Origin: a virus
Taxonomy: Duplodnaviria; Caudoviricetes
IMG/VR virus record: IMGVR_UViG_3300027754_000037
Reading direction: 5' to 3' (one strand)
DNA length: 64,000 nucleotides
Part shown: positions 41,719 through 57,580 of the stretch, piece after piece
How positions within the stretch are numbered: position 1 is the stretch's first letter
Layout of the letters: the number at the start of each line of letters is the position of its first letter
Program-made: the position numbers and the translations under genes
Notes under the pieces: model-generated
The model's database searches: none
The model's input: only the letters and a program-made list of their open reading frames with translations
Told to the model about the DNA's origin: nothing

Positions 41719-42495
41719 ATGGAACAAGACAGACTTATTTGCGAACACATATCTGTTTCCAGAAAGCAGACATGGAACGAATGTCAACAAAAGTATAAAT
41801 TTAGATATCATTTAAAAATGATTCCAGAAGGTCCTGAACAACCCTACTTCACCTACGGAAAAGTTGTTCATAAAATAGCAGAAGTTTTTGTGCAGGAACA
41901 AGGTCAAAGAACAATTGATGAAATCGCATCAGATGTGCTTGCCGGAAGAATTGAATATCAAGAAGGTATTGGCAAACCAAGTCTTGGTCGTGAATACATG
42001 AGTAAATTGCCTAGCCACATCAGAAACATCAAAGAAATTACTGAAAAAATCGGTTTCGATGGAGAAACAGAATGGCAATTCAAGTTTGACTTACAACCTC
42101 CTGACAACCATATTATCACAGGTTTCATAGACCGTTTGATTGTTCGGGGCGAAAAATATTTCATTCTCGACTACAAAACCACCAAAAAAGGCGGATGGCG
42201 AAAAAACGCCAACACCATCAAGAAAGACCTGCAACTCAGGTGTTATGCAAGGGTTGTACAAAAAAAATTCGGTGCTAAAGCAGAAAATATCAACTGCGCC
42301 CTGTATTATCTTGAAGGTGGTGATCTTGTAAGTGCGAAGTTTTCAGAAGAATCCTTAATTGCAGCAGAGCAAGAAATGCACGATACCTATAAGCACATCA
42401 TTTCCACGCATCCAGATGATGTTTACGGCATGGTTGGCAATCATTGCCACCGATGTGACTATATGCAAGTTTGTCCATCACGCAAGCTTATTTGA
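41719..42495 (+). CDS. PD-(D/E)XK nuclease, RecB/AddB/Cas4-like with Fe-S staple cysteines
   Basis: SVSR..TW.EC, GKVVH, GFIDRL, ILDYKT, QLRCYA, CHRCDYMQVC. Confidence 0.88.
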   Translation: MEQDRLICEHISVSRKQTWNECQQKYKFRYHLKMIPEGPEQPYFTYGKVVHKIAEVFVQEQGQRTIDEIASDVLAGRIEYQEGIGKPSLGREYMSKLPSHIRNIKEITEKIGFDGETEWQFKFDLQPPDNHIITGFIDRLIVRGEKYFILDYKTTKKGGWRKNANTIKKDLQLRCYARVVQKKFGAKAENINCALYYLEGGDLVSAKFSEESLIAAEQEMHDTYKHIISTHPDDVYGMVGNHCHRCDYMQVCPSRKLI

Positions 42496-43384
42496 TAGGA
42501 AATAAAATCAAACCCTGAGTAGGCAAATCTGTTCCTCTGTTGATAATCGGCAGTTTATCTGCAATTCCAATCAACACCTTTTGCTCTAACAAAAAGACAT
42601 AGTCTTTTTGTTTCTTCCAGAAACTGTGAATTGCAAATAGAGGTGTGAAAAATCCCTTACCAGTACCATCACGATATTGAGTTCCCCAACAAGTACCGAT
42701 ATACTGACCTTCGTCGTTCATCAAACCGCCACCAGACCTGCCGGGACGAGGGCTATTCTTGATGGTGACCAAATCATTACCAATGATACCAACCATTTCG
42801 ATGTCATAGTGAGCGACTTCAGAACCGGCATCACATCCGCATGAATGAGAGTGCTGTCTACGCACATACTCATAATTTTCAGGACCAATAGGAAAACAAT
42901 TTGGAACCCAATCTGGAGTGAATGTCACGAGCCCAGTATCTTCCTCTGCCCCTTCAATAAACCTGTAGAATATGACATTTGCATCGTAACTTCTTGGAGC
43001 ATCAAGTTTTAGGTCATTGTGATACCAAACAATTATCTTACATTTCAATTTCTTTTTTTTACCCTCTTCTGCGGTCATCACACCATTCCAAAGGTGGCCA
43101 CAAGTTGCAACATACGCAAGATTCTTCTTTGCATCGTAGTGGACTATGGTTCCAGAGCCTGAACCAGCAGCTACTGCTATTTTGACCGAAGGGGCGAGGA
43201 ATTTCCGAAACTCTATGCCACGCTTGGCTATAGGTGCGGGACTTTCGTTGCCGACTGGAATACTCTCCAGAATCGGCATGTTGTCTAGCGGGTCTTTGTC
43301 CAAAAACTTCAAAGTGTTCTGAGAATTCAAGTTTCCTGTCAGGCACAGGCAGGCAAAAAGACTGTAAATAAGTTTTTTTAACAT
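42488..43384 (-). CDS. Secreted trypsin-like (S1) serine protease
   Basis: Signal peptide; GSGTIV, ATCGHL (His), DTGLV (Asp), GRSGGGL (Ser). Confidence 0.85.
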   Translation of the reverse strand: MLKKLIYSLFACLCLTGNLNSQNTLKFLDKDPLDNMPILESIPVGNESPAPIAKRGIEFRKFLAPSVKIAVAAGSGSGTIVHYDAKKNLAYVATCGHLWNGVMTAEEGKKKKLKCKIIVWYHNDLKLDAPRSYDANVIFYRFIEGAEEDTGLVTFTPDWVPNCFPIGPENYEYVRRQHSHSCGCDAGSEVAHYDIEMVGIIGNDLVTIKNSPRPGRSGGGLMNDEGQYIGTCWGTQYRDGTGKGFFTPLFAIHSFWKKQKDYVFLLEQKVLIGIADKLPIINRGTDLPTQGLILFPIK

Positions 43385-43415
43385 ATAAGCCCCAAAAATT
43401 AACTATAATTTATGT

Positions 43416-43883
43416 ATGTCTAAGGAAAAAAGAATCATGCCCACACTCACGGTTTGTCACTATTTGTATTTGACTCGTGAACAAAGATATGCGCTGCATG
43501 AAGGGCAGGAGCTTGAAGTCACAGGCATCACAGTTCCTGTCTGGTTTCATAAAGGAAACACCTCAGAACCCGCTCAGGAAATTTTCTGCAAATACAAGCT
43601 CACAAATGACAGACAAGGCACACGAGTTCTCAATAATGCCGAAGGCTATGAAATCAATATGCCTTCAGTAGAAGTTAAAAGCGAAGATATTGATTCTGAA
43701 CTAATTAAAAGCGTTCAAAACAAGCTAGGAACAACCGAAAGGCTGCTGGACCAAGAGGATGGTGGACTGGAATGGTGTGAATTTAAATTTTTTCAAAAAA
43801 TGCAAATCGAAAACAAACAATACTATAACATTCATTTCGTAGAAATTAAACCCTTGCAGATTTTAACCGACACTCTCGGTTAA
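43416..43883 (+). CDS. Hypothetical protein
   Basis: 155-aa ORF filling the gap between its neighbours. Confidence 0.7.
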   Translation: MSKEKRIMPTLTVCHYLYLTREQRYALHEGQELEVTGITVPVWFHKGNTSEPAQEIFCKYKLTNDRQGTRVLNNAEGYEINMPSVEVKSEDIDSELIKSVQNKLGTTERLLDQEDGGLEWCEFKFFQKMQIENKQYYNIHFVEIKPLQILTDTLG

Positions 43884-44401
43884 ACATCGTGTAACTGGAC
43901 TGACATCTTCACATTGATGGAATCTCCGCTGACCAAGCTCAGCGCCTGCGTCAAAGGAACAGATGCAATAAGAATACCAGAACCCGCAACAGAACTGGTA
44001 CACATGAAAAGATTTAAAACCGTCAATCCAAAGTTGCCTGTCGCCGTAAATGTGATGACTTGACTATTCGCACGATAAATGGATGGGGAAGTGCCAGTAG
44101 TTTCAAAAACAAAACCGTTCTCAGAACTTACGGCCTGCCTTGCATAACCACCAGAGTTGGGTTCCTGACCACTTAAACTATTGACAGTATCAGCATAGGC
44201 TAAAGTGGACCTACCATCCAAGCCGAAATAGTAACTTCCGGGGGGAGTATCCAGCGTTCCTTTGGCAAAAGCGCATTTCAGAATAAACTGTTCACCTAAT
44301 GTGTGAAGCATATTGGTGAGATTCTCTGCTTTCCAAATCACCTCGCCGTTACGAACATGATTTACTTCCAAGATTTTTAGAATGCCGTGCCAGTCGCTCA
44401 T
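43880..44401 (-). CDS. Phage tail-fibre-type beta-sandwich structural protein
   Basis: YYFGL...EPNSGGYARQAV...ITFTATG...L..GDSINV pattern. Confidence 0.6.
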   Translation of the reverse strand: MSDWHGILKILEVNHVRNGEVIWKAENLTNMLHTLGEQFILKCAFAKGTLDTPPGSYYFGLDGRSTLAYADTVNSLSGQEPNSGGYARQAVSSENGFVFETTGTSPSIYRANSQVITFTATGNFGLTVLNLFMCTSSVAGSGILIASVPLTQALSLVSGDSINVKMSVQLHDV

Positions 44402-44928
44402 GTTTTCCCCAGCTTATATTTGTTTTTTTGTCCTGTTTTAATGGAGTATACCAGCGCATCAATTGGAAATTTGCGCCCACAAAATTGCTGATTTTCCACA
44501 AATTCTTTACCGCAACCTTTTTTCAAATAAGCAATTGTGATATGAGGAATATACTTTGGAAAATCTGGTTTATTTATGATATTTTTAAAAAGTTGTTTAT
44601 TCAAATTAAGAATTTCATCATCAACAACCTCTATCATCAATACATCAAATTTTGAATTCTGAGTAAATAATTTTATTTTACCAAGTTGACAGGATGTATT
44701 TTTACAACTCGATATCGTTTCCGATACATTTTTTTCAGTATCTTCTATGCAACCCAAAACTGTTAAATGCACATATTCTTCACGACCAAATGAATGGTCT
44801 TCAGAATCGTAGTAAATATCACTTTCCTGCACATAGTCATAACACCATGATATTATGTCATCTGCAAGTGTTTCTGACACTTCTGCTATGATGTAAGATT
44901 TTTCAAATATTGGCTTACCCGAACACAT
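44398..44928 (-). CDS. 2H phosphoesterase, anti-CBASS Acb1 (T4 gp57B)-like
   Basis: Two HxT motifs: GREEYVHLTVL and YIPHITIAYLKKG. Start reassigned to the ATG at 44928. Confidence 0.75.
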   Translation of the reverse strand: MCSGKPIFEKSYIIAEVSETLADDIISWCYDYVQESDIYYDSEDHSFGREEYVHLTVLGCIEDTEKNVSETISSCKNTSCQLGKIKLFTQNSKFDVLMIEVVDDEILNLNKQLFKNIINKPDFPKYIPHITIAYLKKGCGKEFVENQQFCGRKFPIDALVYSIKTGQKNKYKLGKT

Positions 44929-45244
44929 TTTGCATCTCTTGGTTATCAGGCAAATCAAAACTCTGTGACTTTTTCTTCTGAATATCTTCAAGTTTGCGCT
45001 TTTCGTTCATGAGCTCATTTTCGATATTCTGTAATACATTTACAGAGCTTTGCGAAGATACAAGCTTGTTTTCTTTTCTCTCCAGCCTTTGCTTTTGCCT
45101 GCTGCCTCTCTTGCTCTCCACATTTTCGACAACCTGCAAAGCCTTGCTCAATAAACCTCTGACTTCTTGCAAAGCAAAATCTTCAGGGATGTTTTTTAAG
45201 GCTTGTAAAATACAAATTTTTAATCCAGCCGTGTTATTTTTCAT
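44915..45244 (-). CDS. Coiled-coil hypothetical protein
   Basis: Overlap-coupled to both neighbours. Confidence 0.65.
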   Translation of the reverse strand: MKNNTAGLKICILQALKNIPEDFALQEVRGLLSKALQVVENVESKRGSRQKQRLERKENKLVSSQSSVNVLQNIENELMNEKRKLEDIQKKKSQSFDLPDNQEMQNVFG

Positions 45245-46214
45245 TTTGCCCTTTCTTAACCAGTTCAAGCCAACGAACTGGTGCATCTTCTACTAAATGA
45301 TAACTCAACATATCGCCTTCGTGTAACGAACTGATGAGATACTCCTTAGGCAATTTAACACGCCAATAGTCAATATTTTCATCAATAATCATATTGGTCA
45401 GAGTAGTTCCTTCTGGGAGCATGGTTTTATATCCCAAAGCTATTTCCTTCTTTTTTTGCTCAAACAATCTTCTCTTTGCAGTAGGTTGAGGCATGTACAA
45501 AGAAATAATTTGTTTATAGTTTGGATTTTCCTGCAATTTTTTCATCAAAATTTGGTACTGAGTGCTGACTCTATCGGGTAAATTATTGCTTACAAAATTC
45601 TCAGCTTTAAATCCTTGATGCGTATGAGTTAATGTAAAAAGGGCAGGATAAATTCCATTAATTTTGACCAACATGGAATCTACAATCAAGCCATCCTCTG
45701 GCAGAATTGCTTCTAACTCAATTGAATTGCTTAATTCCAATTGCTCGGTAATCATTTCGAGCTTTGCCACAACCTGATTAAAAAGAATATTGCATTCTGT
45801 AACAAGACTGTTTACCACTATATCGACATCTATAGGACCAAAACTTTCTCCGAGATGTTTGGCTTCAAAGTTTTGAATCAACTCTTCAACTACAGCTAAA
45901 TTTGCTGAATTTATTCCATGAATTTTGACCCATGATCTACAACGAGTCATATTCTTCTCTAAACTGTTTATGCTTCCAGATTTAGCAGCTATGCAAAATG
46001 CTTCTATATACGGATAGGCAATTGATTCAAGGTTTTTCTTGATTTTATTTACATCGAGAATATTTTTGACCATATCCGTTGCATCTTGGTTCTTAAGAAT
46101 CAAGGACGAAAAGTTTGCCAAAATGTTTTCTCGATAATTTTGACAACAGCATCTTATTTTGCACCGAGATTCTTGTTTTTCACGAAGGAAATCTGCAAGT
46201 TTTTTTATTGGCAT
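45234..46214 (-). CDS. Hypothetical protein
   Basis: ATG 1 nt after the TerL stop; about 326 aa. Confidence 0.7.
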   Translation of the reverse strand: MPIKKLADFLREKQESRCKIRCCCQNYRENILANFSSLILKNQDATDMVKNILDVNKIKKNLESIAYPYIEAFCIAAKSGSINSLEKNMTRCRSWVKIHGINSANLAVVEELIQNFEAKHLGESFGPIDVDIVVNSLVTECNILFNQVVAKLEMITEQLELSNSIELEAILPEDGLIVDSMLVKINGIYPALFTLTHTHQGFKAENFVSNNLPDRVSTQYQILMKKLQENPNYKQIISLYMPQPTAKRRLFEQKKKEIALGYKTMLPEGTTLTNMIIDENIDYWRVKLPKEYLISSLHEGDMLSYHLVEDAPVRWLELVKKGQNEK

Positions 46215-46215
46215 T

Positions 46216-48066
46216 TTACCACCCGAACTCTTTGAGTATTTTATGAGCACGCCTCTGTTGAGTCATAACGACCCCAGACATATAGTTTTCATTATCTGGT
46301 GCTAAAATATCTAACTCGCTATCCATTAAAATTTCCTCTGGCCTACCTTCAAGCAATTCTCTTTTTATATCTTCATACACCTGAGCTTTGACTATCGGCA
46401 TAGGCAATGTAGCTTGACCTCCCACGGGCAAATCTCTCAACATAGAATCACGAACAAACAATCCAATGCACATCGCCATGATAGCATCATCGTGCTTGCC
46501 CTTTTGTGCCTGAGCTTTTCTTGCAACCTTATTGAATTCAAAGGTTTGCAACTCGGTCACAAATCTCATGCTATTGATGCGAAGAGTGCCATTCAAAAGT
46601 CTGCTTTGCAAACTTTCCAAATACAAAGAGCGATTTACCTGACCAATTTTTACTCCGGGTTTAGCATTTGCTTTATTTGATTCAAAATAAAGATTGTCAT
46701 ATTGTAAGCTATGCTGCAAAGCACTTAGGACTGCACCTCCGGGACCCATATTCTCTACAACAACTAGAGAATTGTAGTAGTAAATTGCAACTTCTTTTAC
46801 TACCTGAGCAAATTCATAAGGCACAATTATATTGCTGTAAAATTCAGCAACCTGCTCTAGAGTTGCCGTATCAACTATGTGAAATACGCTGCTATCATTA
46901 TTTTCGCCCTGACCTTCAGCGCAGTCGGCACTCAAGATATATTCGTGTCCATCAACTGGTTCTTTCCAAACCCACAAAGCGCCTTTATTTAAATCATCGT
47001 CCAACTGTGAAATACGACCTATTGGATTGCTCCATTTGGCAAACATCTTTCTGCTGGGATTATTGCTCCTACATTGTTCAGTCAAAGATGTGATTACACT
47101 TGTGGGAAAATATGTTTCACCCGAACCTTGAAACTCACGCAAAACCTCTTGACGAAAACCCTTCTCGCCAAGCTGCGCCTTTTGTTCTGCTACCCAATCT
47201 TCATCGTTGTAGTCTGGATGTTGCCAATAATCCAAATCAATAATATTGAAACGATTGTTGCCTTCTCTTGCATCGTGATATGTTTGTTCATACCAGTTTC
47301 CCAAACCATTGACCGTCGAAACCAAGGTGCAAGAACCACCTGTTGACAGGATAGGCCACATAGCCTTCCAATGCTTCTCCATGTCGTCGATGAACGCTGC
47401 TTCATCAACTATAAGAAATGTAACGGACTTACCACGAGCAGCTTCGGGTGAATAAAACTTGCAGACAGAACCAGTATCCGTAAACATTTTCAAGTGGTCG
47501 TTCCACTTGGCATCTTTTCTAGGCTTCAGCCATTCGGGCATGTTTTCACATGATCTGTCAACCATCATGCCAATATCTGTAGCTTCACGGTCGGTCTTTG
47601 AGATCAACATGATCTGCTGATCTAACTGAAACATGCAACGCCACAAACCCCACAACAAAGTAACTGTTGTCAGACCTCCCTGCCGGAATTTAGAAATGAT
47701 GTTGAACCTATTTTTCTCATAATCATGAATGGTTTTTTTCTGATATTTGAATAAAATAAATGGAATCAAACCCCGCATGGGATGCAAAATCTTGACATAC
47801 TTATGACAAAAATATGAAAAACTTTCAGTACACTTGATGATTTCCTTTTTTCTGCGTGCTGTATCATAATTTTCAACGGCATCCATCGGCTCATCTGGAT
47901 CGATTTCAAGCTCACATTTGTTGAATTCGTAGTATCGTGGATCAAATTCATAACGACCAGTATTTGGGTACATGTTTCCACCCAACTGGTAATATTCTTT
48001 CAAAGATTTGAAATTGCCACGCCAAACTGATTCCTTGACGCTTTTAAAAAATGTTGGCTGATCCAC
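46216..48066 (-). CDS. terL: Terminase large subunit (T4 gp17-like)
   Basis: FCHKYVKI.HP, YQ Q-motif, KFRQGGLTT Walker A variant, LIVDEAAF Walker B, STVNG, SADCAEG and HDDAIMA nuclease motifs. The exact start is uncertain. Confidence 0.95.
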   Translation of the reverse strand: MDQPTFFKSVKESVWRGNFKSLKEYYQLGGNMYPNTGRYEFDPRYYEFNKCELEIDPDEPMDAVENYDTARRKKEIIKCTESFSYFCHKYVKILHPMRGLIPFILFKYQKKTIHDYEKNRFNIISKFRQGGLTTVTLLWGLWRCMFQLDQQIMLISKTDREATDIGMMVDRSCENMPEWLKPRKDAKWNDHLKMFTDTGSVCKFYSPEAARGKSVTFLIVDEAAFIDDMEKHWKAMWPILSTGGSCTLVSTVNGLGNWYEQTYHDAREGNNRFNIIDLDYWQHPDYNDEDWVAEQKAQLGEKGFRQEVLREFQGSGETYFPTSVITSLTEQCRSNNPSRKMFAKWSNPIGRISQLDDDLNKGALWVWKEPVDGHEYILSADCAEGQGENNDSSVFHIVDTATLEQVAEFYSNIIVPYEFAQVVKEVAIYYYNSLVVVENMGPGGAVLSALQHSLQYDNLYFESNKANAKPGVKIGQVNRSLYLESLQSRLLNGTLRINSMRFVTELQTFEFNKVARKAQAQKGKHDDAIMAMCIGLFVRDSMLRDLPVGGQATLPMPIVKAQVYEDIKRELLEGRPEEILMDSELDILAPDNENYMSGVVMTQQRRAHKILKEFGW

Positions 48067-48119
48067 GGTCCACCTTACTCTATATAAAGAGCCATCTTAT
48101 ATATCAAAACGGGAGCAAT

Positions 48120-49253
48120 ATGCGCAAATTACAGATAACCGCCCTTGTTTTAGCAATAGTATTTCTTGTTGTTTTACTAAGTAAACCAAGCAACAAGCAT
48201 GAGCCAGTCGAGCGGATTCAAAAGCCAGAAACCAAAAAAGAACTACCTCCAGAGGAGAAAAAGCCTCCAGTTGCCACCGTTGAGGAAGCTGTAAAAAAAA
48301 TTGAAAGACAACCTTTAAAAGAGAATGTTGAACTTCTAGCATCGGATAAATTTGAAGGCAGAATGTCTGGCAAGAATGGTAATAAGCTGGCAGCATCACA
48401 TGTCAAAAAGAATTTTGAATCAATAGGACTGCCCACAGAATATCACAAATTCCCAATTCGCAGAACTAACCCCGGACCCAATAACGAAGTTGGCGATGCG
48501 TTCTCACAAAATGTATATGCTTGGATCGAAGGAAATGATGAGAATCTAAAAGATGAAGTTGTGGTTGTTGGTGCGCACATGGATCACATCGGTTATGGAC
48601 CATCCATGAGCCGTTGGGGAGGAGGCAAAATACATCCCGGTGCCGACGACAACGCAACCGGAACAGCAGCACTCGTGGAAATTGCCCGTGCCTTCAAATA
48701 TCTTGAAGGACAAAACAAGAGAACTGTGGTTTTTATGGCTTTTTCTGGTGAAGAAATGGGCTTGTTAGGCAGTTATCACTATGTCAACAATCCCCTTTTC
48801 CCCAAGGGAAATCCAGATATTACTAAGCATGTATTTATGCTGAACATGGATATGATTGGATATTTAAATCAAGGTAAAACAGTTGCTTTTGAATCAAATG
48901 AAAGTTCACCGGATATCGGTTCAGCAATAAATGAATTGTCAAAAAAATATGCGTTTGCAAAAACCGTAACACTTAGAGGCGCAAGTGGAAGTGATCATGC
49001 GCCTTTCTATAATAAAAAAGTACCAGTAGCTTTCTTACACACAGGACTTCACCCTTACTACCACACTCCCAAAGATACACCGGATAAAATTAACTACGAA
49101 GGTCTTGAGAAAGTTGCAAAATATGGCTTTGAATTGGCTTGGAATGTTTCTAATGCCGATAAAAAACCAGCATTTGACTACGGTTCATTCAAAGAAATGG
49201 ACTACAGTCACGACCACGGCCAGAAAGACATGCAATTTGGAGATAAGCCATGA
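48120..49253 (+). CDS. Membrane-anchored/secreted M28 family aminopeptidase
   Basis: N-terminal hydrophobic anchor; GAHMDH, GADDNATG, FSGEEMGLLGS, NMDMIG, SDHAPF, YHTPKD. Confidence 0.92.
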   Translation: MRKLQITALVLAIVFLVVLLSKPSNKHEPVERIQKPETKKELPPEEKKPPVATVEEAVKKIERQPLKENVELLASDKFEGRMSGKNGNKLAASHVKKNFESIGLPTEYHKFPIRRTNPGPNNEVGDAFSQNVYAWIEGNDENLKDEVVVVGAHMDHIGYGPSMSRWGGGKIHPGADDNATGTAALVEIARAFKYLEGQNKRTVVFMAFSGEEMGLLGSYHYVNNPLFPKGNPDITKHVFMLNMDMIGYLNQGKTVAFESNESSPDIGSAINELSKKYAFAKTVTLRGASGSDHAPFYNKKVPVAFLHTGLHPYYHTPKDTPDKINYEGLEKVAKYGFELAWNVSNADKKPAFDYGSFKEMDYSHDHGQKDMQFGDKP

Positions 49254-49684
49254 ACCTTGAAACTATGCTCAAACTTATGAATGAAGACCTCCATCGTGAA
49301 TGGTCACACATGAGGTTTTACTTGTATCACGCCAGCAAGGTTGTGGGATTGCATTGCCATGAATACAAGGAACTTTTCCTTAAAGAATCGGCAAACGAAA
49401 TGGGCCATGTCACAGAATTTTCAGATATGATTGTCGGTTTAGGCGGTTCAATCGTTAATGGTTGGGGAGATGAGCAAATTCCTGACCTTGCTACTGCCAA
49501 AGATATTATTCAGCACGCTCTGAAGATGGAATCTGAAGTTGTTGACAATTATGTCAAAAGAATGGATCAGGCTGTTGAGTTGGGTGGCACGGATGGCACT
49601 TGGATTGAAATATTTTATGAAAAGCAGGTTGAACACAGCAGGGAAGATGTCGATCACTTCCGGCAAATATTGCGTGGCGTTTGA
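49250..49684 (+). CDS. Ferritin-like (bacterioferritin-type) four-helix protein
   Basis: EDLHREW, ESANEMGH, IVGLGG, ALKMESEVVDNY, HSREDVDH; ATGA overlap with the M28 gene. Confidence 0.75.
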   Translation: MNLETMLKLMNEDLHREWSHMRFYLYHASKVVGLHCHEYKELFLKESANEMGHVTEFSDMIVGLGGSIVNGWGDEQIPDLATAKDIIQHALKMESEVVDNYVKRMDQAVELGGTDGTWIEIFYEKQVEHSREDVDHFRQILRGV

Positions 49685-50048: not shown

Positions 50049-50064
50049 GTCAATAAATTTGACA

Positions 50065-50110
50065 AAAAAGCCTATTCACACGCTACATAAAATGTGTGAA
50101 TAGGCTTTTT
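50065..50110. terminator. Perfect 17-bp inverted repeat hairpin (terminator) with CTACATA in the loop
   Basis: AAAAAGCCTATTCACAC-12 nt-GTGTGAATAGGCTTTTT. Confidence 0.8.
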
Positions 50111-50133
50111 GCATTAAGAATGGAAGGCAAAAA

Positions 50134-51159
50134 ATGGCATTTTATCAAAATCTTTTCAACGAATATCTCGGCAACTATGTTGTGGGCGATTCCAGAGCTT
50201 TCACGCTGACCTTTAAGGTTCCGCAAAATCGCAACCACGGTGAGTTTTTTATCTGCTGGAATTCTGGTCCTTTTGACTTATCAAGCGTAGGCCCCGATTT
50301 AACCTTTAATTACGCTTTTGGGCCAGACTTTAAAAATTGGTCTAGCTTTACCGTAAGTTTAGGCACAATGTCTTCTGTTACAGCCTATGATCTGGTTGCA
50401 GCTTTAAACAGCGATACTGTATTTGAACAATTCTTTTCGGCATCTCTCTACAACGGCAAACAAATTGGAATTCGACAGTTAAAACCAGCTTCTGTCATGA
50501 AAAGCTATGTTTCAAACAGTAATACGGAATTAGTCTTCGGATTCAACAAGTATGCTGGATATGCTGATATACCCTCTTACTTTGACAAAGATACAATCAA
50601 TAACAGATTTGCAACGCCTGAATCTAACGGACAACTCGTCAGAATCGGCAAAAATATTGTTGGAAATAATGTAGACAACCCAACTGAGGTATTGTGTCCG
50701 GGGCATGGTTTTGCTAATGGAGATGAAGTATACTTTGCCAATAGCAACTCAACTCCATCATTGGATGGATTGCAAATCGTAACGGTAGTTGATGATGATG
50801 CTTTTACTGTAGCTGTCAATGTCACAATCGCTGGAAATACTGGCGATGTTTTCACAGATAGTGAAGTTACAGTTCTTGCCAACGCCGGTTTGAACTACGA
50901 AGATGTTAAACAAGATTATAAACACCTCGGTGGACGCTGCGGAGCTTTTCTTTGCACCATCAACATCGTTGACGGCTCTGATCGTATCACAAACCAATTG
51001 ATTTATCAGACAGGTGCAAAAACAGGCATGTTGGGTACAAAAATTTGCTACACTTACACCAATTCAAACAAAAATCCCGATTCAATATTCTCGCAGCCTT
51101 ATGTTCTTACTGAAAATGATCTGCTAGGCCCGTGCACCGAGCTTGAGCCTGAGCTTTAG
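50134..51159 (+). CDS. Virion structural protein with an FCCH-like beta domain
   Basis: NPTEVLCPGHGFANGDEVYF...SLDGLQIVTVVDDDAFTV, paralogous to domains in 19887..24188. Confidence 0.65.
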   Translation: MAFYQNLFNEYLGNYVVGDSRAFTLTFKVPQNRNHGEFFICWNSGPFDLSSVGPDLTFNYAFGPDFKNWSSFTVSLGTMSSVTAYDLVAALNSDTVFEQFFSASLYNGKQIGIRQLKPASVMKSYVSNSNTELVFGFNKYAGYADIPSYFDKDTINNRFATPESNGQLVRIGKNIVGNNVDNPTEVLCPGHGFANGDEVYFANSNSTPSLDGLQIVTVVDDDAFTVAVNVTIAGNTGDVFTDSEVTVLANAGLNYEDVKQDYKHLGGRCGAFLCTINIVDGSDRITNQLIYQTGAKTGMLGTKICYTYTNSNKNPDSIFSQPYVLTENDLLGPCTELEPEL

Positions 51160-51334
51160 CCTGCTTAAAATCAAAATAACTCCAAGTTTCTGCTGATAAA
51201 CCCATATCATACACAGGAACAACAATTGTAGATTTAAACGAAAAAGGCAAGTTGTGTATCTTTACACAGCTTGCCCAATCGTTTGATAGTAATTTTTTCC
51301 ATGCTTCATATGAGGGCATGACATTCCTCTTGTA

Positions 51335-51853
51335 TTACATGAAAAAGAGAATATAGCCCAAACCAATAATTTGAGCAGCAATAACAACCAAAAGCAATTT
51401 GTCCATCATGGACATACCATCCTTTTGTGGTTTTGTCATGTTTTCAAGTTCCTCCGCTAAACCTAAACTTTTAACAACTTTTTTGGGAGATTCAGTTTTA
51501 GCTGCTGCCAAAACTTTGACTTCCTCCTTGTTCTTAAAGGAGCCCAAAACTGCAAGGAGCTCTTCTTTGGTCACAAAGTTGCTCTCTCCACCCTTGGTTC
51601 CAACAAGTGCTTCAATCTTTTCCTCCACGACATTGCCGCTCACAGGGTCAACGACCTCAATCTTGCGCTCATACAACATCGGCTTGGTGCGCTCGATGAT
51701 GCGTTGTTGCAATTTCAAAGGACGCTCGTCCTCAACATGCAACTCAACAATTTTTTCTCCTTGCCCATCGGCATTTTTGATCTCAACGACTCTGCGCTCG
51801 GCTCTTCTGCCGTCTTCCAAAGTCCACTTTTCTACCTTCAGATTATCATCCAT
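51335..51853 (-). CDS. C-terminally membrane-anchored hypothetical protein
   Basis: GGAG RBS; terminal TM LLLVVIAAQIIGLGYILFFM. Confidence 0.75.
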   Translation of the reverse strand: MDDNLKVEKWTLEDGRRAERRVVEIKNADGQGEKIVELHVEDERPLKLQQRIIERTKPMLYERKIEVVDPVSGNVVEEKIEALVGTKGGESNFVTKEELLAVLGSFKNKEEVKVLAAAKTESPKKVVKSLGLAEELENMTKPQKDGMSMMDKLLLVVIAAQIIGLGYILFFM

Positions 51854-51887
51854 TTTTACTCCCTTTGACTCGTAGGATGTGCTACAC

Positions 51888-52265
51888 TTATTTATCCCGC
51901 TTGTCGTCAATTTTGGGTTGTACTTTCACACCAGAAATCATGACTTTTTGCTTATTAAAATGATTTTCCGCTAAAATTTCAGCATTTTGCAAAGCAATTT
52001 CTTTTGATGAAGCAATTACATCACTTAAATTCTTATATTCTACACCAAGTCCACGGTTGTAACGCACAGTCACAGCCCAAGTTGCTTCTCTGGGAGTCTT
52101 CAATAGTTGCGAAGCCAACTCTATGGCCTCTGCATATGAATCACACTCATGAGGTTCTATTCGATAATGACTCGATGGAACTGATTCCTTTTTTACTATA
52201 AACTTTCCAGCAGAAGGATAAATCATGAAACCGCTTAATAAGAGGTCTCGAATTTCGTTGCCCAT
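51888..52265 (-). CDS. Hypothetical protein
   Basis: GGAG RBS upstream of the ATG at 52265. Confidence 0.65.
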   Translation of the reverse strand: MGNEIRDLLLSGFMIYPSAGKFIVKKESVPSSHYRIEPHECDSYAEAIELASQLLKTPREATWAVTVRYNRGLGVEYKNLSDVIASSKEIALQNAEILAENHFNKQKVMISGVKVQPKIDDKRDK

Positions 52266-52294
52266 ATAACACTCCTTCGATGGTTTCCTACATT

Positions 52295-52816
52295 TTAAGT
52301 AAGTCCCCATTTAGATTTGAATTCATCAAAAATTTCCTTTCTTTTCTTATCTGCTTCTTCAATCATTTTCTTGCGTTCAAGTGGTTTCTGCCGCCTCTCA
52401 ATCAACTTGGCCGACTTGTAAAACGATTCTGCGCTTTCTTCCCAGACACCCGGAGCAAATCTCTCCAGTTCTCCAGCGATTTCTCGATATACTTTTCTCC
52501 CTTCAAATTCTACTACAATTTCTTTGTTGTAATGATGAACAAATATGGAAAGATTCGTTCCACGAGATAACCCGTCAAAATGCAAACCTATCTCATAACT
52601 GTTGTCGTCCTCCTCTAAAGTCGGTAAACTTTCATCCATAAATTCGGCAGCAAAAGGGTCTTCCAAAAAAGTTTGTTTATAACAACTACTGCCCTGCTGC
52701 AACACAGACTCTCCCAATCTTCGTGCTATGGCTGAAAACTTGCCCTCCATGCCCGTGTAGCCCTTCTTCATGGCTTCGGTAGTCCTCGCCTCTCTCAACC
52801 TGTCTTCACGATTCAT
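52295..52816 (-). CDS. Hypothetical protein
   Basis: 173-aa ORF. Confidence 0.7.
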   Translation of the reverse strand: MNREDRLREARTTEAMKKGYTGMEGKFSAIARRLGESVLQQGSSCYKQTFLEDPFAAEFMDESLPTLEEDDNSYEIGLHFDGLSRGTNLSIFVHHYNKEIVVEFEGRKVYREIAGELERFAPGVWEESAESFYKSAKLIERRQKPLERKKMIEEADKKRKEIFDEFKSKWGLT

Positions 52817-52872
52817 GTTTCAACCTCTGACCACTATATACATATGCGTCTTTCACTTTATAAAGGAGCAAT

Positions 52873-54573
52873 ATGATAAAAGGATTGATCAATTGGCTGA
52901 TAAGAAAAAAAGACCAAGTAGTGCAAGGATTGGCAATCGCTACGCCCAAAGCGTCTCCAAAACCAGTTGTAGCAACAAATAAAACATACCTTGTTGATGC
53001 ATCAGAGCCTCTATATGTAATCAACGAAACGATTACCGCAAACATTCTCCCTATGCGTGCCATTGGCGAAACTACAGGTGGACAAACCTTGGGCAGCATA
53101 CCCCAGCAGGCTTTGGCACTTCGTCAAATTGTCAACAATGCACTTTCCTACATGAAGTCCAAAAGCCCAAAAACAATCAATAAATGGGCTTCAACTTCCG
53201 CATTAAATCTCTATCCCAGAGCAGGCCAAGACATCAACGCATACTACGACAGAAGCTCACTCAAATTCTTTTATTTTAAAGACACAGTCAGAAATAAAAA
53301 TATTTTCGCATGTGATTCCAGAAGCGTTGTCGCCCACGAATTTGGCCACGCTTTTCTCGATATTATAAGACCAGACCTGTGGAGCCTCGCAGCACCAGAA
53401 GTCTGGGCTTTTCATGAGGCTTTTGGTGACATCACAGCACTTATTAGCGGCTTGCAATTTCCACAACTCATAGACAAGGCACTTGCCGACACAGGTTCTG
53501 ATCTCACTAAATCGAATGTGATCAGTAAATTGGCCATAGACATGGGTGTAGGGCTCTACAACCTCACCAATGGCACAGATGGCGAACTCAGCAACTGTCT
53601 TCGTGATCTTTCCATCAAGTTTAAATATGTAAAGCCAGAAACCCTTCCTACACATGGACCTGACAATATTCTCATCAACGAATCACACAACTTTAGCCGT
53701 GTTTTCAGCAGCATGTTTTACGATCTGCTTCTACGCATAATGAACAAAAACATCACCACAGGACAAACTGCTAAAGTTGCCCTTACAGCAGCCCGTGACA
53801 CAATCACGAGCTACTTCCTGCAAGCTTGCACAAAAGCAGCGGCTTCAACAAGATTTTTCAAATCTGTCTGCCAAGAAATGCTTCTCGCAGATCAAAGAAA
53901 TGGCAACAAATATCAGCAAATTATGACTCAATGTTTTACCGATAGCAAAATTACTACCGCTCCAATAGCCATGCTCAGAACCATGTCTCTTGAAGATGTT
54001 TTGAACAACATTAAAGACGAATATGAAATCGATGACGAAGATATGATCGTTGTCAGAACCACTTCTTCAAAAACAATCAAACTTGTTGATGAAGCAGGAA
54101 TTTTAGCCCTTCACTACAATCCTCTTCTCAGCGTTGAAGTCGAAATTGCTGCACAATCAGCCTACTTTTTTTCTCCCGAAGGACAGCTTGAGCATGTAGA
54201 AGAAACAACACATGCTGAAGTTGTTGAAGCGGCACTCAACTGTCTCAATCAACTGAATATAAAAAATTTGGTTGGAAATCACGACAAGGCTATTTTTGAA
54301 GTGATCAACAACAAACTTGTTCGCAAACAAATAGCATGTAGTTGCAACAAACCAAATTACTGCATTCCCGGTTCACCTGAATACCAAAAACCTTGGAAAC
54401 CCAAGAACAACTCAGGCTGCATCAAGTGCGGAAAAGGATGCGAACCCAAACCCTGTGACTGCGCTTCTCCTCCTGCTCCAACCCCTCCTAAAATTGGCTG
54501 TTACACCAAGGTAAGCACAGGGGGAATTACAAAATATTCAGTCGGAAGCAGCATTTCGAGGAAGGTCTGCTGA
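52873..54573 (+). CDS. Gluzincin metallopeptidase (M4/M36-like) with a Cys-rich tail
   Basis: NAYYD, VVAHEFGHAFLD (HExxH), AFHEAFGDI (third ligand), ESHNFSRV; AAGGAG RBS. Confidence 0.85.
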   Translation: MIKGLINWLIRKKDQVVQGLAIATPKASPKPVVATNKTYLVDASEPLYVINETITANILPMRAIGETTGGQTLGSIPQQALALRQIVNNALSYMKSKSPKTINKWASTSALNLYPRAGQDINAYYDRSSLKFFYFKDTVRNKNIFACDSRSVVAHEFGHAFLDIIRPDLWSLAAPEVWAFHEAFGDITALISGLQFPQLIDKALADTGSDLTKSNVISKLAIDMGVGLYNLTNGTDGELSNCLRDLSIKFKYVKPETLPTHGPDNILINESHNFSRVFSSMFYDLLLRIMNKNITTGQTAKVALTAARDTITSYFLQACTKAAASTRFFKSVCQEMLLADQRNGNKYQQIMTQCFTDSKITTAPIAMLRTMSLEDVLNNIKDEYEIDDEDMIVVRTTSSKTIKLVDEAGILALHYNPLLSVEVEIAAQSAYFFSPEGQLEHVEETTHAEVVEAALNCLNQLNIKNLVGNHDKAIFEVINNKLVRKQIACSCNKPNYCIPGSPEYQKPWKPKNNSGCIKCGKGCEPKPCDCASPPAPTPPKIGCYTKVSTGGITKYSVGSSISRKVC

Positions 54574-55005
54574 TTTGCGAAGCCTGTTCTTTAGACGAAC
54601 AGGCCTGCCCTCATCGTCATAATTAATTGTGTTTGTATTCGCATCAATCTGATGGTAGATAAGTTCTGCATAAGGCTTGTTACCCATAAAATTGATGCGG
54701 ATTTTTACTTCCGTGATGTGTGGTTTGGCTTCTCTAATCCTGATTTTAAATTTATCACCATCGCCAGCAACTATGTAATATCCATATGATGTTTCTTCTT
54801 CTTTCACAATCGGATAATTCAGTTCCTTTAGTGAATTCTTTGTGGCTCGATACATATTTTTAACTTCTTCGTTGTAATACTTGTGAGCCTCGCCATCTTT
54901 CCACATGATATATCCAGTTACTATTGGACCATAGATAAAAGAAGCGAAACTACAACCTGTTAAAGAAATAATTAAAAAATATAAAAATAAAACTATTTTT
55001 TTCAT
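54538..55005 (-). CDS. DUF3568-like lipoprotein
   Basis: Lipobox-like SLTGC; YRATKNSLKEL...ITEVKIRINFMGNK. Confidence 0.65.
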   Translation of the reverse strand: MKKIVLFLYFLIISLTGCSFASFIYGPIVTGYIMWKDGEAHKYYNEEVKNMYRATKNSLKELNYPIVKEEETSYGYYIVAGDGDKFKIRIREAKPHITEVKIRINFMGNKPYAELIYHQIDANTNTINYDDEGRPVRLKNRLRKSADLPRNAASD

Positions 55006-55057
55006 GACATCCTCCTATATTATTTATTATTCATCCCGTAACAAAAGGAGAATATCC

Positions 55058-55342
<285 letters not shown>

Positions 55343-55363
55343 TTTTCGTCATTATTTTCATCA

Positions 55364-55392
55364 AAGCCCAGCTTTTCGCTGGGCTTATTTTT
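55364..55392 (+). terminator. Intrinsic terminator
   Basis: AAGCCCAGC-TTTTC-GCTGGGCTT followed by ATTTTTT. Confidence 0.8.
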
Positions 55393-55489
55393 TCGATATT
55401 CAAAAATCAACTCATATATATTTTAGTATTATATCAAGATAAATATTATGACAACATCGAACAATACTCTTAACATGACAAGGAGGTTC

Positions 55490-56206
55490 ATGAAAAGATT
55501 TTTTGCGTTTTTTGCTGCTGTTGCGACAGTTTTGCCTGCAATAGCACAAGCGCCATCAGTTGACGATATAAGAAATCGTCAATACCCAAATGTTTATCTG
55601 GCAGCAGACACTAATCCCATCGCAGCCATCGAAGGCGCTGTCGATGAAGATCTTGCTGATGTCATGGTCCCAGTTCCCATAAAGGATAGGGTCTTCAATA
55701 AAACCGGCATTCAATGCGTCTGGGCTTCTACAGAACTACTCGGCAGATATGCCGAAGAGCCTAAACTGATCGGACTTACCAACGATTCTGAATGCAAAAG
55801 CTACGCAAACACATACAGTTTTTCACGCAAAATGAAACAACTCAATGTCAAATTTGAAACAACCACGGACCCCCGTGACCGTAGCCTTATCATCAAAAGC
55901 GTTGTCAAAGAACGCCGTGGTTGCCTGTTCTGCATCCCCGGCCACGCTATGGTCTTAGTCCACTATGATGAAAAAAAAGGCATCGTTAAATATATCAACA
56001 ACAGCGATAGAAGCCTCGCTATCAGAACTTGGACTATGGCAGAATTCAACCGCCACTTCGATGGATGGGTTTCAGCAGTTTACGCTGATAACGACATCGT
56101 CCCCTTAAAATACACTCCTAAAATTCCAGACCTACCCATCATCGACCGTGGACAGGAAAAACAAGCTTACGACAAGGAATACATCCTGCAACCTTTGAAG
56201 CAATAA
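55490..56206 (+). CDS. Secreted papain-like (C39-like) cysteine peptidase
   Basis: AGGAGG RBS, AQA signal peptide, QCVWAS (Cys), GHAMVL (His), YINNSD. Confidence 0.7.
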   Translation: MKRFFAFFAAVATVLPAIAQAPSVDDIRNRQYPNVYLAADTNPIAAIEGAVDEDLADVMVPVPIKDRVFNKTGIQCVWASTELLGRYAEEPKLIGLTNDSECKSYANTYSFSRKMKQLNVKFETTTDPRDRSLIIKSVVKERRGCLFCIPGHAMVLVHYDEKKGIVKYINNSDRSLAIRTWTMAEFNRHFDGWVSAVYADNDIVPLKYTPKIPDLPIIDRGQEKQAYDKEYILQPLKQ

Positions 56207-56209
56207 ACT

Positions 56210-56240
56210 AAACCCGCCCTAAAAAGGCGGGTTTTTATTT
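56210..56240. terminator. Terminator between convergent genes
   Basis: AAACCCGCC-CTAAAAA-GGCGGGTTT followed by a T-rich tract. Confidence 0.8.
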
Positions 56241-56468
56241 TTTCTTGTCGCAATTACAGTCTTTTTTCATATAGCGAATCTTGTTTTTGCGGTTTTTTGC
56301 TGTAATTGGGAGTTCATTGTCCGAATATGTGGGAAATGCTCCCGGTGCAATCATTCTCTTGGCAACTCCATCGCCACCATCGCCCTCGTCCTCCACACTA
56401 GAAGGATCGTTGGCGCTCCCGCCAAACCACTCTTTTTTGTTCAGATAATCAAGGAAAGATTGCTTCAT
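56235..56468 (-). CDS. Small hypothetical protein (possible head-packaged protein)
   Basis: N-terminus MKQSFLDYLNKKE; CTATATA 6 nt upstream. Confidence 0.7.
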   Translation of the reverse strand: MKQSFLDYLNKKEWFGGSANDPSSVEDEGDGGDGVAKRMIAPGAFPTYSDNELPITAKNRKNKIRYMKKDCNCDKKK

Positions 56469-56509
56469 AATGAATATATAGTTTGCCGACATATTTTACA
56501 AGGAGGGTC

Positions 56510-57580
56510 ATGAAAAACGATTTTTCAAAACTGATGCTGATTGGAATCTTATCCCTTGCCTTAGTCTTAATATTTAATCTAAAAACAAAGTCTTACCCTG
56601 AGCCTAAAGTTGCTCAGGTTCCAAAAAAAATAGTTCCTGAAGCAGGACCGCAAACATATCCAGAACCAAAATCTCCACAGATTTCCAACCCTATTCCAAA
56701 ACACCTCTCCTATCCTCAAACCGTCGAACAACTTAAAAATTGGAATAAAGAAGCTCCAGAACTCACAGAAGTTGGCATATACGGCCAATCTAAAAAGGGC
56801 ACAGACCTGTTTTATATTCGAGTCAATAATAAATTAGATAAAAATACCAAACCAGTCATTCTTATTACAGCTTGCATTCACGGAAATGAATCATGGAGCG
56901 CAGGTATCACTATGGGATACTTGGGCAATTTACTCAAGAATTATTCTACCGATCCCAAAATAAAAGCACTCATAAATTCTCGTGATATTTATTTTATTCC
57001 AGTTGTTTCTCCCGACAGTTATACCCAGCAGAGATTTGTTGATGGAGTTGATCCCAACCGTGACTTCCCCACTCCTAAAAACAAAACACACCAAAGCACT
57101 CCCAGCGTTGCTGCACTCCGTGAATTCTACTGGAAAATTAAACCACACGCAGTTTTGTCAGGACACACATACGGCAGGCTTTTTCTCATTCCTTACGGCG
57201 ATCAATATGGGAAAAATTCCAACCAATCTGATTATGATGCGATTGTTGGCAAAATGGCTAAAATGGCCAATTACAAAATGATTCATTGCGTTGAACTTTA
57301 CAAATCACCAATCGACGGTACTGAAGTTGACTGGTTCTATCGAAACGGCAGCTTTGCTGCTGTTATCGAATACGGCACCCACCAACACAAACCCAGTCTG
57401 CAAGAAATTAAAGACGAACTTAAGTGCACCCAAGATGCAATTACATATTTCATAGAAAAATCACCAGATATCAAAATTACTACGGTAGATAATGAAATTG
57501 ACTTTAGCCAGAACACAGGAATTGCAAAAGAATATCACCGCAACTCCGATGGTGCTCTAAAATCAATTAATCCTCACTAA
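56510..57580 (+). CDS. Membrane-anchored/secreted M14 zinc carboxypeptidase
   Basis: AGGAGG RBS, TM anchor; ACIHGNE (HxxE), VDPNRDF, SGHTYG, VIEYG. Confidence 0.9.
   Translation: MKNDFSKLMLIGILSLALVLIFNLKTKSYPEPKVAQVPKKIVPEAGPQTYPEPKSPQISNPIPKHLSYPQTVEQLKNWNKEAPELTEVGIYGQSKKGTDLFYIRVNNKLDKNTKPVILITACIHGNESWSAGITMGYLGNLLKNYSTDPKIKALINSRDIYFIPVVSPDSYTQQRFVDGVDPNRDFPTPKNKTHQSTPSVAALREFYWKIKPHAVLSGHTYGRLFLIPYGDQYGKNSNQSDYDAIVGKMAKMANYKMIHCVELYKSPIDGTEVDWFYRNGSFAAVIEYGTHQHKPSLQEIKDELKCTQDAITYFIEKSPDIKITTVDNEIDFSQNTGIAKEYHRNSDGALKSINPH

What the first reader, a model, noticed from the sequence alone, without database searches (positions are those of the whole stretch)
42488..57580. Five-class protease arsenal, mostly exported, between primase and portal
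Within about 15 kb lie an S1 serine protease, an M28 aminopeptidase, an M4/M36-like gluzincin, a C39-like cysteine peptidase and an M14 carboxypeptidase. All have intact catalytic motifs, and four have signal peptides or membrane anchors. A DUF3568-like lipoprotein lies among them. An endo-, amino- and carboxy-peptidase set outside the cytoplasm is unusual for a phage. It could remodel a proteinaceous envelope or S-layer for lysis, destroy receptors for superinfection exclusion, or scavenge amino acids. No classical endolysin is visible in this window.
Basis: partly seen in the sequence, partly recalled or inferred. Interest (0 to 1): 0.8.

Follow-up and report, generated by a model that had tools for sequence, protein, structure and literature searches.

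The report
Exported peptidase set of a huge phage
A clade of uncultured freshwater huge phages that probably infect Bacteroidota carries a conserved set of five different peptidases, four sent to the host cell envelope and two sharing an unknown C-terminal tag, which points to phage-directed protein breakdown in the host periplasm.

Summary
All five peptidase genes are real and have intact active sites.
- M28 aminopeptidase and M14 carboxypeptidase: clear Pfam matches.
- M4/M36-like gluzincin and C39-like cysteine peptidase: no Pfam match, confirmed by predicted structure.
- Trypsin-like serine peptidase: below the Pfam cut-off itself, but 20 of 21 orthologues match and the His/Asp/Ser triad is invariant.

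These are five families in three catalytic classes, spread over about 15 kb among terminase and other genes. They are not one cassette.

Four carry conserved export signals. Two have cleavable signal peptides with the Bacteroidetes "Q-rule" glutamine. Two have membrane anchors followed by Pro-rich linkers. The gluzincin has no signal. The DUF3568 protein has a conserved lipobox.

The set is syntenic in about 57 IMG/VR relatives, including complete genomes of 572 and 532 kb. Peptidase divergence tracks terminase divergence, so these are not recent independent pick-ups. GenBank phages almost lack them.

The serine and C39-like enzymes share a C-terminal tail, as does a caspase-like peptidase in relatives. 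This scan had already noted the tail on this genome.

Twelve classical endolysin families were not detected in relatives.

The function is inferred only. I favour periplasmic protein and peptide digestion for amino-acid supply. Protease-assisted lysis and receptor stripping remain open.

The parts
42488..43384 (-). Trypsin-like (PA clan) serine peptidase, 298 aa. It has a cleavable signal peptide (about residues 1-21, Gln at +1), a triad of H97/D149/S217, and a C-terminal tail.
42491..42556 (-). C-terminal tail of the serine peptidase, matching hP-I-h-(D/N)-R ... (Y/L)-I-L-x-P.
48120..49253 (+). M28 di-zinc aminopeptidase, 377 aa from the ATG at 48120 (the ORF opens at 48051). It has an N-terminal membrane anchor, then a Pro/Lys/Glu-rich linker. 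Its stop overlaps the start of the ferritin-like gene (ATGA).
52873..54573 (+). M4/M36-like gluzincin, 566 aa. It has HExxH plus ExxxD and no signal peptide. The N-terminus is a short amphipathic leader, and residues about 490-566 form a Cys-rich, low-confidence tail.
54538..55005 (-). DUF3568 lipoprotein, 155 aa, with lipobox L-T-G-C.
55364..55386 (+). Intrinsic-terminator-like hairpin upstream of the C39-like gene.
55490..56206 (+). C39-like papain-fold cysteine peptidase (the ORF opens at 55448). It has a cleavable signal peptide with Gln at +1, C90/H166 in 252-aa numbering, and a C-terminal tail.
56129..56203 (+). C-terminal tail of the C39-like peptidase.
56210..56234 (.). Two-way terminator-like hairpin directly after the C39-like gene.
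56510..57580 (+). M14 (A-type) zinc carboxypeptidase. The likely start is the ATG at 56510 (the ORF opens at a TTG at 56483). It has an N-terminal membrane anchor, then a Pro-rich linker.

Best explanation
This is a vertically inherited periplasmic proteolysis set of a huge-phage clade that infects Bacteroidota.

Proposed layout:
- Two soluble endopeptidases (trypsin-like and C39-like) are exported by Sec and cut by signal peptidase I. This leaves an N-terminal Gln that the host cyclises. They carry a common C-terminal docking tail.
- Two exopeptidases (M28 aminopeptidase, M14 carboxypeptidase) are held on the outer face of the inner membrane by an uncleaved anchor and a flexible Pro-rich linker.
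- The M4/M36-like endopeptidase belongs to the same conserved block but is not Sec-exported.

Together they would cut envelope proteins or imported oligopeptides down to free amino acids. That would feed synthesis of a very large virion.

Shown: the folds, active sites, export signals, conservation and host phylum.
Inferred: the site of action (periplasm), the substrates (proteins and peptides, not peptidoglycan) and the purpose.

My odds are about 0.8 that the four act in the host envelope on proteins or peptides, and about 0.4 that the purpose is amino-acid supply.
For: - Family and active-site assignments.
- The closest solved relatives are general secreted protein or peptide hydrolases. 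These are leucyl aminopeptidases, carboxypeptidase T/A, thermolysin, LasB and fungalysin, and DegQ-type proteases. No peptidoglycan hydrolase is among them.
- Export signals are conserved in all orthologues.
- A Gln lies just after the hydrophobic core in 19 of 23 serine-peptidase and 7 of 9 C39-like sequences. Chance expectation is about 0.3, and the anchor and lipoprotein controls sit at chance.
- No T9SS C-terminal domain was found by NCBIfam, so a periplasmic location is likelier than secretion.
- About 70 of the 80 nearest cellular M28 homologues are Bacteroidota.
- In Bacteroidota the periplasm is a known site of oligopeptide digestion, and pyroglutamate is thought to protect exported proteins from aminopeptidases (PMC10653852).
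- In the nearest clade every gene is present in all assessable loci, or all but one.
- Identity to each peptidase tracks terminase identity, Spearman 0.67-0.95.
- An amino- plus a carboxy-exopeptidase are needed for complete digestion. They are not needed for receptor removal or lysis (inference).
Against: - No substrate, activity, localisation or expression data exist.
- The gluzincin has no export signal.
- M14 sits in the block only in the nearest clade. It lies about 100 kb from the terminase in one complete relative (G001) and just beyond the 10-kb flank in the other (G002).
- M28 and the DUF3568 gene are missing near the terminase in many more distant relatives.
- The periplasmic protein pool is small compared with the needs of a virion carrying a genome of more than 500 kb.
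- Classical endolysins were not detected in relatives. That leaves room for a lysis role instead.
- The signal peptides were judged by hydrophobicity and conservation, not by a trained predictor.
Confidence: 0.42

Rival explanations
1. Protease-assisted lysis or egress. The exported peptidases weaken the envelope late in infection. They would cut outer-membrane to peptidoglycan tethers, envelope proteins or stem peptides. This would replace or supplement a classical endolysin or spanin.
For: - Ten endolysin Pfam families with working positive controls were not detected in six relatives, two of them CheckV-100% genomes. These are Amidase_2, Phage_lysozyme, SLT, M15_4, Amidase_3, NlpC/P60, GH25, CHAP, VanY and Glucosaminidase.
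- GH19 and GH108 were also not detected, but their controls did not ring.
- M23 was found in only two of the six.
- The same tool did find the S77 prohead protease in those records.
- The genes lie among late structural and packaging genes.
- In bacteria the DUF3568 domain is often fused to OmpA-type peptidoglycan-binding domains.
Against: - None of the five resembles a known peptidoglycan peptidase. The structure hits are C39, M4/M36, CPT/CPA and leucyl aminopeptidases.
- Exopeptidases are not needed for lysis.
- A divergent endolysin could have escaped Pfam profiles.
- The baseplate hub and other large proteins were not examined by structure.
Confidence: 0.2
2. Superinfection exclusion or receptor stripping. 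The periplasmic and surface-directed proteases destroy receptors, or degrade the ejection proteins of incoming phages.
For: - Export to the envelope is well supported.
- Huge phages are reported to encode many envelope-directed proteins (PMC7162821; preprint 10.64898/2026.10.24.761521).
- The endopeptidases carry a common tag that could place them at one envelope site.
Against: - Amino- and carboxy-exopeptidases add nothing to receptor removal.
- No outer-membrane export signal (T9SS CTD) is present.
- Broad conservation with the structural backbone is less typical of fast-turning exclusion genes.
Confidence: 0.12
3. There is no functional unit. The five peptidases have separate jobs, such as processing particular phage or host proteins, with the gluzincin perhaps packaged or cytoplasmic. 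They are neighbours only because this region is conserved.
For: - They lie in at least five transcription units on both strands, among unrelated genes.
- The gluzincin lacks a signal.
- M14, M28 and DUF3568 are variably placed or absent in more distant relatives.
Against: - Two of them, plus a third peptidase fold in relatives, share one C-terminal tail.
- Both exopeptidases have the same anchor-plus-linker design.
- All occur together in the nearest clade.
Confidence: 0.18

Closest known systems
Periplasmic peptide-digesting system of Porphyromonas and other Bacteroidota (endopeptidases plus DPPs; Q-rule and glutaminyl cyclase)
   Same: Exported endo- and exopeptidases work in the envelope of a Bacteroidota cell. 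Signal peptidase I substrates start with Gln (PMC5837995, PMC10653852).
   Different: Here the genes are phage-encoded. The families differ (M28, M14, trypsin-like, C39-like rather than the S9/S46 DPPs). No T9SS domains are present, and an unknown C-terminal tail is.
Signal-peptide or signal-anchor-release phage endolysins (own knowledge)
   Same: Both are phage enzymes sent across the inner membrane by Sec, acting on the envelope.
   Different: Those are muramidases, amidases or peptidoglycan endopeptidases. These five resemble general proteases and exopeptidases.
C39 peptidase domains of PCAT bacteriocin exporters (3zua, 6mpz, 7n87, 4ry2)
   Same: They are the best structural match, with a papain-like fold and conserved Cys and His.
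   Different: The window's protein is stand-alone with a signal peptide, not the cytoplasmic N-terminal domain of an ABC transporter. It has no Pfam C39 match, and Asn84/Gln89 replace the usual Gln spacing.
Thermolysin/pseudolysin (M4) and fungalysin (M36)
   Same: It shares the HExxH plus ExxxD zinc site and the two-lobe fold.
   Different: It has no signal peptide and no FTP/PepSY propeptide. It has an extra C-terminal domain and a Cys-rich tail, and no Pfam M4/M36 match.
Envelope-associated proteins of huge phages (sortase B with substrates, PspA, OMPs; preprint 10.64898/2026.10.24.761521)
   Same: These are huge phages encoding Sec-exported proteins with C-terminal sorting signals that act on the host envelope.
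   Different: That work does not describe this peptidase set or this tail. The tail has no hydrophobic segment or charged end like a sortase signal.
T4 gp21-type prohead protease (S77)
   Same: Both are phage-encoded proteases in the head gene region.
   Different: The clade has its own S77 protease elsewhere. The five described here are unrelated, and four are exported.

Membership tests
Peptidase M28 | Pfam PF04389 match above the curated cut-off | tested here: met
   154.6 bits against a cut-off of 21.3, E 3.3e-45
Peptidase M28 | Two-zinc site: His, Asp, Glu, Asp, His ligands plus a catalytic Glu | tested here: met
   H176, D199, E235, D267, H338 and E234 are invariant in 22 sequences. This pattern fits an aminopeptidase rather than a single-zinc glutaminyl cyclase.
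Peptidase M14 | Pfam PF00246 match above the cut-off | tested here: met
   94 bits against a cut-off of 21.6
Peptidase M14 | HxxE and a distal His as zinc ligands; Asn-Arg, Tyr and Glu catalytic residues | tested here: met
   H133/E136, N192/R193, H228, Y286 and E296 align to carboxypeptidase T
Peptidase M14, murein-peptide subfamily (MpaA / gamma-D-Glu-DAP type) | Closer to MpaA-type than to A/B-type carboxypeptidases | tested here: not met
   The best PDB matches are carboxypeptidase T, A4, A2 and B. No MpaA entry appears at E <= 0.01.
Peptidase M4/M36 (thermolysin-like gluzincins) | HExxH plus a downstream Glu ligand in an ExxxD motif | tested here: met
   H155, E156, H159, E182 and D186 are invariant in 21 sequences
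Peptidase M4/M36 (thermolysin-like gluzincins) | Thermolysin-like two-lobe fold | tested here: met
   Foldseek: 4k90 at E 5e-6; LasB, ProA, aureolysin and thermolysin at E 1e-5 to 1e-4. AFDB 'Peptidase M4 domain' clusters at E 6e-25, TM 0.81.
Peptidase M4/M36 (thermolysin-like gluzincins) | Match to the family's sequence profiles; signal peptide and FTP/PepSY propeptide | tested here: not met
   No Pfam or NCBIfam hit and no PDB profile hit. There is no N-terminal hydrophobic segment.
Peptidase C39 | Papain-like fold nearest to C39 domains, with catalytic Cys and His | tested here: met
   Foldseek top hits are 3zua, 6mpz and 7n87 (E 2e-4, TM 0.64-0.69). C90, H166, H172, D174 and D187 are invariant.
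Peptidase C39 | Match to Pfam PF03412/PF13529; N-terminal domain of an ABC exporter | tested here: not met
   No Pfam hit. It is a stand-alone protein of about 240 aa with a signal peptide.
Trypsin-like serine peptidases (PA clan; S1) | Match to a trypsin-family profile | tested here: inconclusive
   The window's protein scores 21.1 bits, below the cut-off of 27.6. Twenty of 21 orthologues match at E < 0.01, best 7.7e-8.
Trypsin-like serine peptidases (PA clan; S1) | His-Asp-Ser triad in that order, with a GxSGG-type motif | tested here: met
   H97, D149 and S217 (in G-R-S-G-G-G) are invariant in 21 sequences
DUF3568 (PF12092) lipoproteins | Pfam match above the cut-off, plus a lipobox | tested here: met
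   47.6 bits against a cut-off of 23.2. An [LF]-x-G-C lipobox is present in 17 of 17 homologues.
Sec / signal peptidase I substrates of Bacteroidota (Q-rule) | Charged n-region, hydrophobic core, then Gln at the new N-terminus | tested here: met
   19 of 23 and 7 of 9 sequences have Gln within 10 residues after the core. Chance is about 0.3 and the controls sit at chance. No trained predictor was available.
T9SS cargo | C-terminal sorting domain (TIGR04183/TIGR04131), about 70-100 aa | tested here: not met
   No NCBIfam hit. The tail is only about 25 residues and has low model confidence.

The most novel reading that the evidence does not exclude
This huge-phage clade has no classical endolysin. 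It opens or remodels the Bacteroidota envelope with a Sec-exported multi-protease system. The shared C-terminal tail (hP-I-h-D-R ... Y-I-L-x-P) would be a new docking or sorting signal. It would bring three unrelated protease folds (trypsin-like, C39-like, caspase-like) to one envelope site.
Probability: 0.15. Interest if true: 0.85.

Novelty: new variant of a known kind. Interest (0 to 1): 0.62.

Why it matters
Phage genes that act on the host envelope are known, and peptidases have been counted among common huge-phage genes. What has not been described is a conserved, clade-wide set built this way:
- complementary endo-, amino- and carboxy-peptidases directed to the periplasm;
- host-phylum-specific signal peptides;
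- one shared C-terminal tag on unrelated protease folds.

If the set feeds the phage, it is a new type of auxiliary metabolism: protein turnover outside the cytoplasm. If it opens the envelope, it is a new lysis route in phages that seem to lack endolysins. Either way it gives testable enzymes and a candidate new sorting motif for Bacteroidota. The Q-rule signal is also a sequence-only host marker for uncultured phages.

Tried and rejected
- PHROGs gave nothing useful for the serine, gluzincin, C39-like or DUF3568 proteins.
- PDB profile searches with the C39-like and gluzincin alignments found nothing significant. For the serine peptidase, only weak DegQ-type hits around the active-site serine appeared.
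- No M28 or M14 match was found in the nearest GenBank phage, LR756511.1.
- Complex prediction of the DUF3568 lipoprotein with the C39-like tail gave no answer, score 0.00. This is neither support nor evidence against binding.
- Sequencing runs: no RNA holder was listed. Only DNA holders from freshwater and sediment metagenomes were found.
- The sigma-70 promoter scan was at chance level, 38 found against 40 expected. By-eye TATATA-like motifs upstream of several genes were not pursued.
- M28 as a glutaminyl cyclase was considered and rejected, because all five di-zinc ligands are invariant.
- One of the five as the prohead protease was rejected, because relatives carry a T4-type S77 protease.
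- The window's own genome is not held, so nothing outside the 64 kb could be searched.


Full report
**Setting.** The window is part of an uncultured huge phage.
- Its T4-type large terminase (46216-48066, minus strand) is 53% identical to that of LR756511.1, a 595-kb uncultured phage.
- It is 49-77% identical to terminases on 57 IMG/VR contigs. Among them are a 572-kb genome with terminal repeats and a 532-kb genome, both rated 100% complete.
- The left half of the window is a baseplate and tail-fibre block.
- A Toprim primase (40595-41659) and a PD-(D/E)XK nuclease (41719-42495) precede the span.
- A T4-type portal with two inteins follows it.
- The window's own genome is not held.

**The five peptidases.**
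- M28 and M14 are plain Pfam members, at E 3.3e-45 and 1.7e-26.
  - In M28 all five zinc ligands and the catalytic Glu are invariant in 22 sequences. The nearest solved proteins are secreted bacterial leucyl aminopeptidases.
  - M14 aligns best to carboxypeptidase T and A-type enzymes with every catalytic residue in place. No murein-peptide amidase appears among the matches.
- The 566-aa protein has no Pfam, NCBIfam or PDB sequence match.
  - Its HExxH and ExxxD motifs are invariant in 21 orthologues.
  - Its AF2 model (pLDDT 80) matches fungalysins (M36) and LasB, ProA, aureolysin and thermolysin (M4).
  - It also matches cellular 'Peptidase M4 domain' clusters at E 6e-25.
- The 252-aa protein also has no Pfam match.
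  - Its model (pLDDT 78) is closest to the C39 peptidase domains of PCAT exporters.
  - Cys90 and His166 are invariant.
  - No NlpC/P60 or CHAP structure is among the top 50 matches.
- The 298-aa protein is below the Trypsin_2 cut-off, but 20 of 21 orthologues match it. His97, Asp149 and Ser217 are invariant.

They represent five families in three catalytic classes.

**Export signals.** No trained predictor was available. I used hydrophobicity and conservation instead.
- Every serine-peptidase and C39-like orthologue starts with a basic n-region and a hydrophobic core of about 12 residues.
- A Gln follows that core in 19 of 23 and 7 of 9 distinct sequences. About 0.3 is expected by chance, and the membrane anchors and lipoproteins used as controls sit at chance level.
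- This is the Bacteroidetes Q-rule for signal peptidase I substrates (PMC5837995). It has also been seen in Porphyromonas phages (PMC10367356).
- M28 and M14 have a more hydrophobic, uncleaved-looking N-terminal segment followed by a 40-50 residue Pro/Lys/Glu-rich linker. This design is conserved in orthologues and suggests catalytic domains tethered to the outer face of the inner membrane.
- The DUF3568 protein has a lipobox in 17 of 17 homologues.
- The gluzincin has no such signal. It has a short conserved amphipathic N-terminus and, in the nearer relatives, a Cys-rich tail that was modelled with low confidence.

**Co-occurrence.**
- In the nearest clade (terminase at least 70% identical), counts within 10 kb of the terminase, among loci long enough to judge, are: serine peptidase 15 of 15, M28 10 of 11, gluzincin 7 of 7, DUF3568 7 of 7, C39-like 7 of 7, M14 7 of 7.
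- At 60-69% terminase identity the serine peptidase (19 of 19), the gluzincin (15 of 15) and the C39-like gene (12 of 15) persist. M28 (9 of 17) and DUF3568 (9 of 15) are patchy near the terminase.
- M14 moves out of range but is present in both complete relatives at 46-47% identity.
- The serine peptidase is present in four of five large relatives.
- Identity of each protein to its orthologues rises with terminase identity, Spearman 0.67-0.95. Related sequences inflate the p-values, but the trend is clear. The genes are old residents of this lineage, not recent independent acquisitions.
- Among 50,697 GenBank phage records, the serine and C39-like proteins have no match. The gluzincin has two, M28 six (mostly short metagenomic fragments) and M14 one.
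- The C39-like family has at least 212 clusters, all metagenomic and unnamed, on contigs up to 603 kb.
- Atlas clusters for the serine, C39-like and DUF3568 proteins are mostly viral.

**Host.** Three lines point to Bacteroidota:
- the Q-rule;
- the nearest cellular M28 homologues, about 70 of 80 of which are Flavobacteriaceae and other Bacteroidota at 34-45% identity;
- kinship with a huge uncultured phage from GenBank (LR756511.1); in the published survey the largest huge phages, which form the Mahaphage clade, are predicted to infect Bacteroidetes, but I did not check whether LR756511.1 belongs to that clade (PMC7162821).

The DNA occurs in freshwater and sediment metagenomes from several studies.

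**Shared tail.**
- The serine and C39-like peptidases end in the same motif of about 25 residues, conserved across both families.
- It is at the C-terminus of 116 of 120 C39-like family representatives.
- Only these two ORFs in the window carry it.
- A profile of the tail finds a third bearer in relatives: a signal-peptide-bearing caspase-like peptidase (Pfam Peptidase_C14, E 6.7e-9). It has a Gln after the signal and is seen in two relatives; a third relative (G002) has another tail-bearing exported protein with His-Gly and Cys motifs but no significant Pfam match.
- So at least two, and probably three, unrelated protease folds share one tag, which argues for a common fate.
- The tail has low model confidence, no hydrophobic segment, and is far shorter than a T9SS domain. 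Its partner is unknown.
- This scan's first-stage notes had already flagged the tail on this genome.

**Endolysin.**
- No endolysin domain was found in the window.
- In six relatives, including the two complete genomes, twelve classical families were not detected. M23 was found in two.
- Positive controls rang for ten of the twelve. The tool did find the S77 prohead protease in these records.
- A divergent endolysin cannot be excluded.

**Mechanism.**
- All five enzymes look like protein and peptide hydrolases.
- Four are directed to the periplasmic side.
- The two exopeptidases are anchored next to the membrane where uptake occurs.
- In Bacteroidota the periplasm is a site of oligopeptide digestion, with pyroglutamate thought to shield resident proteins from aminopeptidases (PMC10653852).

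I therefore favour phage-boosted digestion of envelope proteins or imported peptides to amino acids. The phage's own endopeptidases would be protected by the Q-rule at the N-terminus. The conserved C-terminal Pro might give similar protection at the other end, but that last point is speculation.

Protease-assisted lysis is the main rival, and the missing endolysins keep it alive. Receptor stripping, and separate unrelated roles for each enzyme, are further rivals.

Nothing here measures activity, location or timing.

Noticed in passing
window 42491-42556 (-) and 56129-56203 (+); L168:1087-2031(-), L167:1285-2370(-), L045:11848-12843(+): A C-terminal tail of about 25 residues (hP-I-h-D-R, 7-9 residues, Y-I-L-x-P) is shared by the trypsin-like and C39-like peptidases. 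In relatives it is also on an exported caspase-like (Pfam C14) peptidase. It is present in 116 of 120 C39-like family representatives. Its partner is unknown.
   Followed up: yes
relatives G001 (572 kb), G002 (532 kb), G003-G005, LR756511.1: Twelve classical endolysin Pfam families were not detected. M23 was found in only two records. The S77 prohead protease was detected with the same tool.
   Followed up: partly
window 58237-62013 (+): The T4-type portal gene (1258 aa) carries two intein-splicing matches and a LAGLIDADG homing-endonuclease domain (Pfam).
   Followed up: partly
window 36952-37956 (+): An actin-fold protein matches Pfam Volactin at E 6e-64.
   Followed up: partly
window 52873-52920 and 54340-54570 (+); L054:4310-4561(-): The gluzincin has a conserved amphipathic N-terminus (M-x-x-G-h-h-N-W-h) instead of a signal peptide. 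It also has a tail with about 12 Cys, present only in the nearer relatives. In one subclade the tail is a separate 83-aa ORF.
   Followed up: partly
window 49250-49684 (+): A ferritin/Dps-like gene (Pfam E 6e-13) is translationally coupled to M28 through an ATGA overlap. It is conserved in 36 related loci.
   Followed up: no
window 44398-44991 (-): A 2H phosphoesterase-like protein gives weak, sub-threshold Pfam hits to Acb1 and 2'-5' RNA ligase families.
   Followed up: no
window 55058-55342 (+): A stand-alone protein made almost entirely of Asp/Glu, closed by a strong terminator at 55364-55386. tblastn found no match in related loci, which may reflect low-complexity filtering.
   Followed up: no
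window 51335-51910 (-): A conserved 191-aa protein with a single C-terminal hydrophobic segment (tail-anchored type) is present in 30 related loci, next to the gluzincin block.
   Followed up: no
L087 (JAKQFZ010000010.1) and L088 (JBGPGB010000148.1): The two closest 'cellular' M28 hits lie on contigs of 1.1 kb and 4.9 kb, binned into Omnitrophota and Nitrosotalea MAGs. They are probably mis-binned phage fragments.
   Followed up: no
window 56235-56468 (-) and 62264-62623 (-): Small ORFs have N-termini like the T4 capsid-targeting leader (M-K-x-[FS]-F-x-[DE]-[YF]-[LV]).
   Followed up: partly
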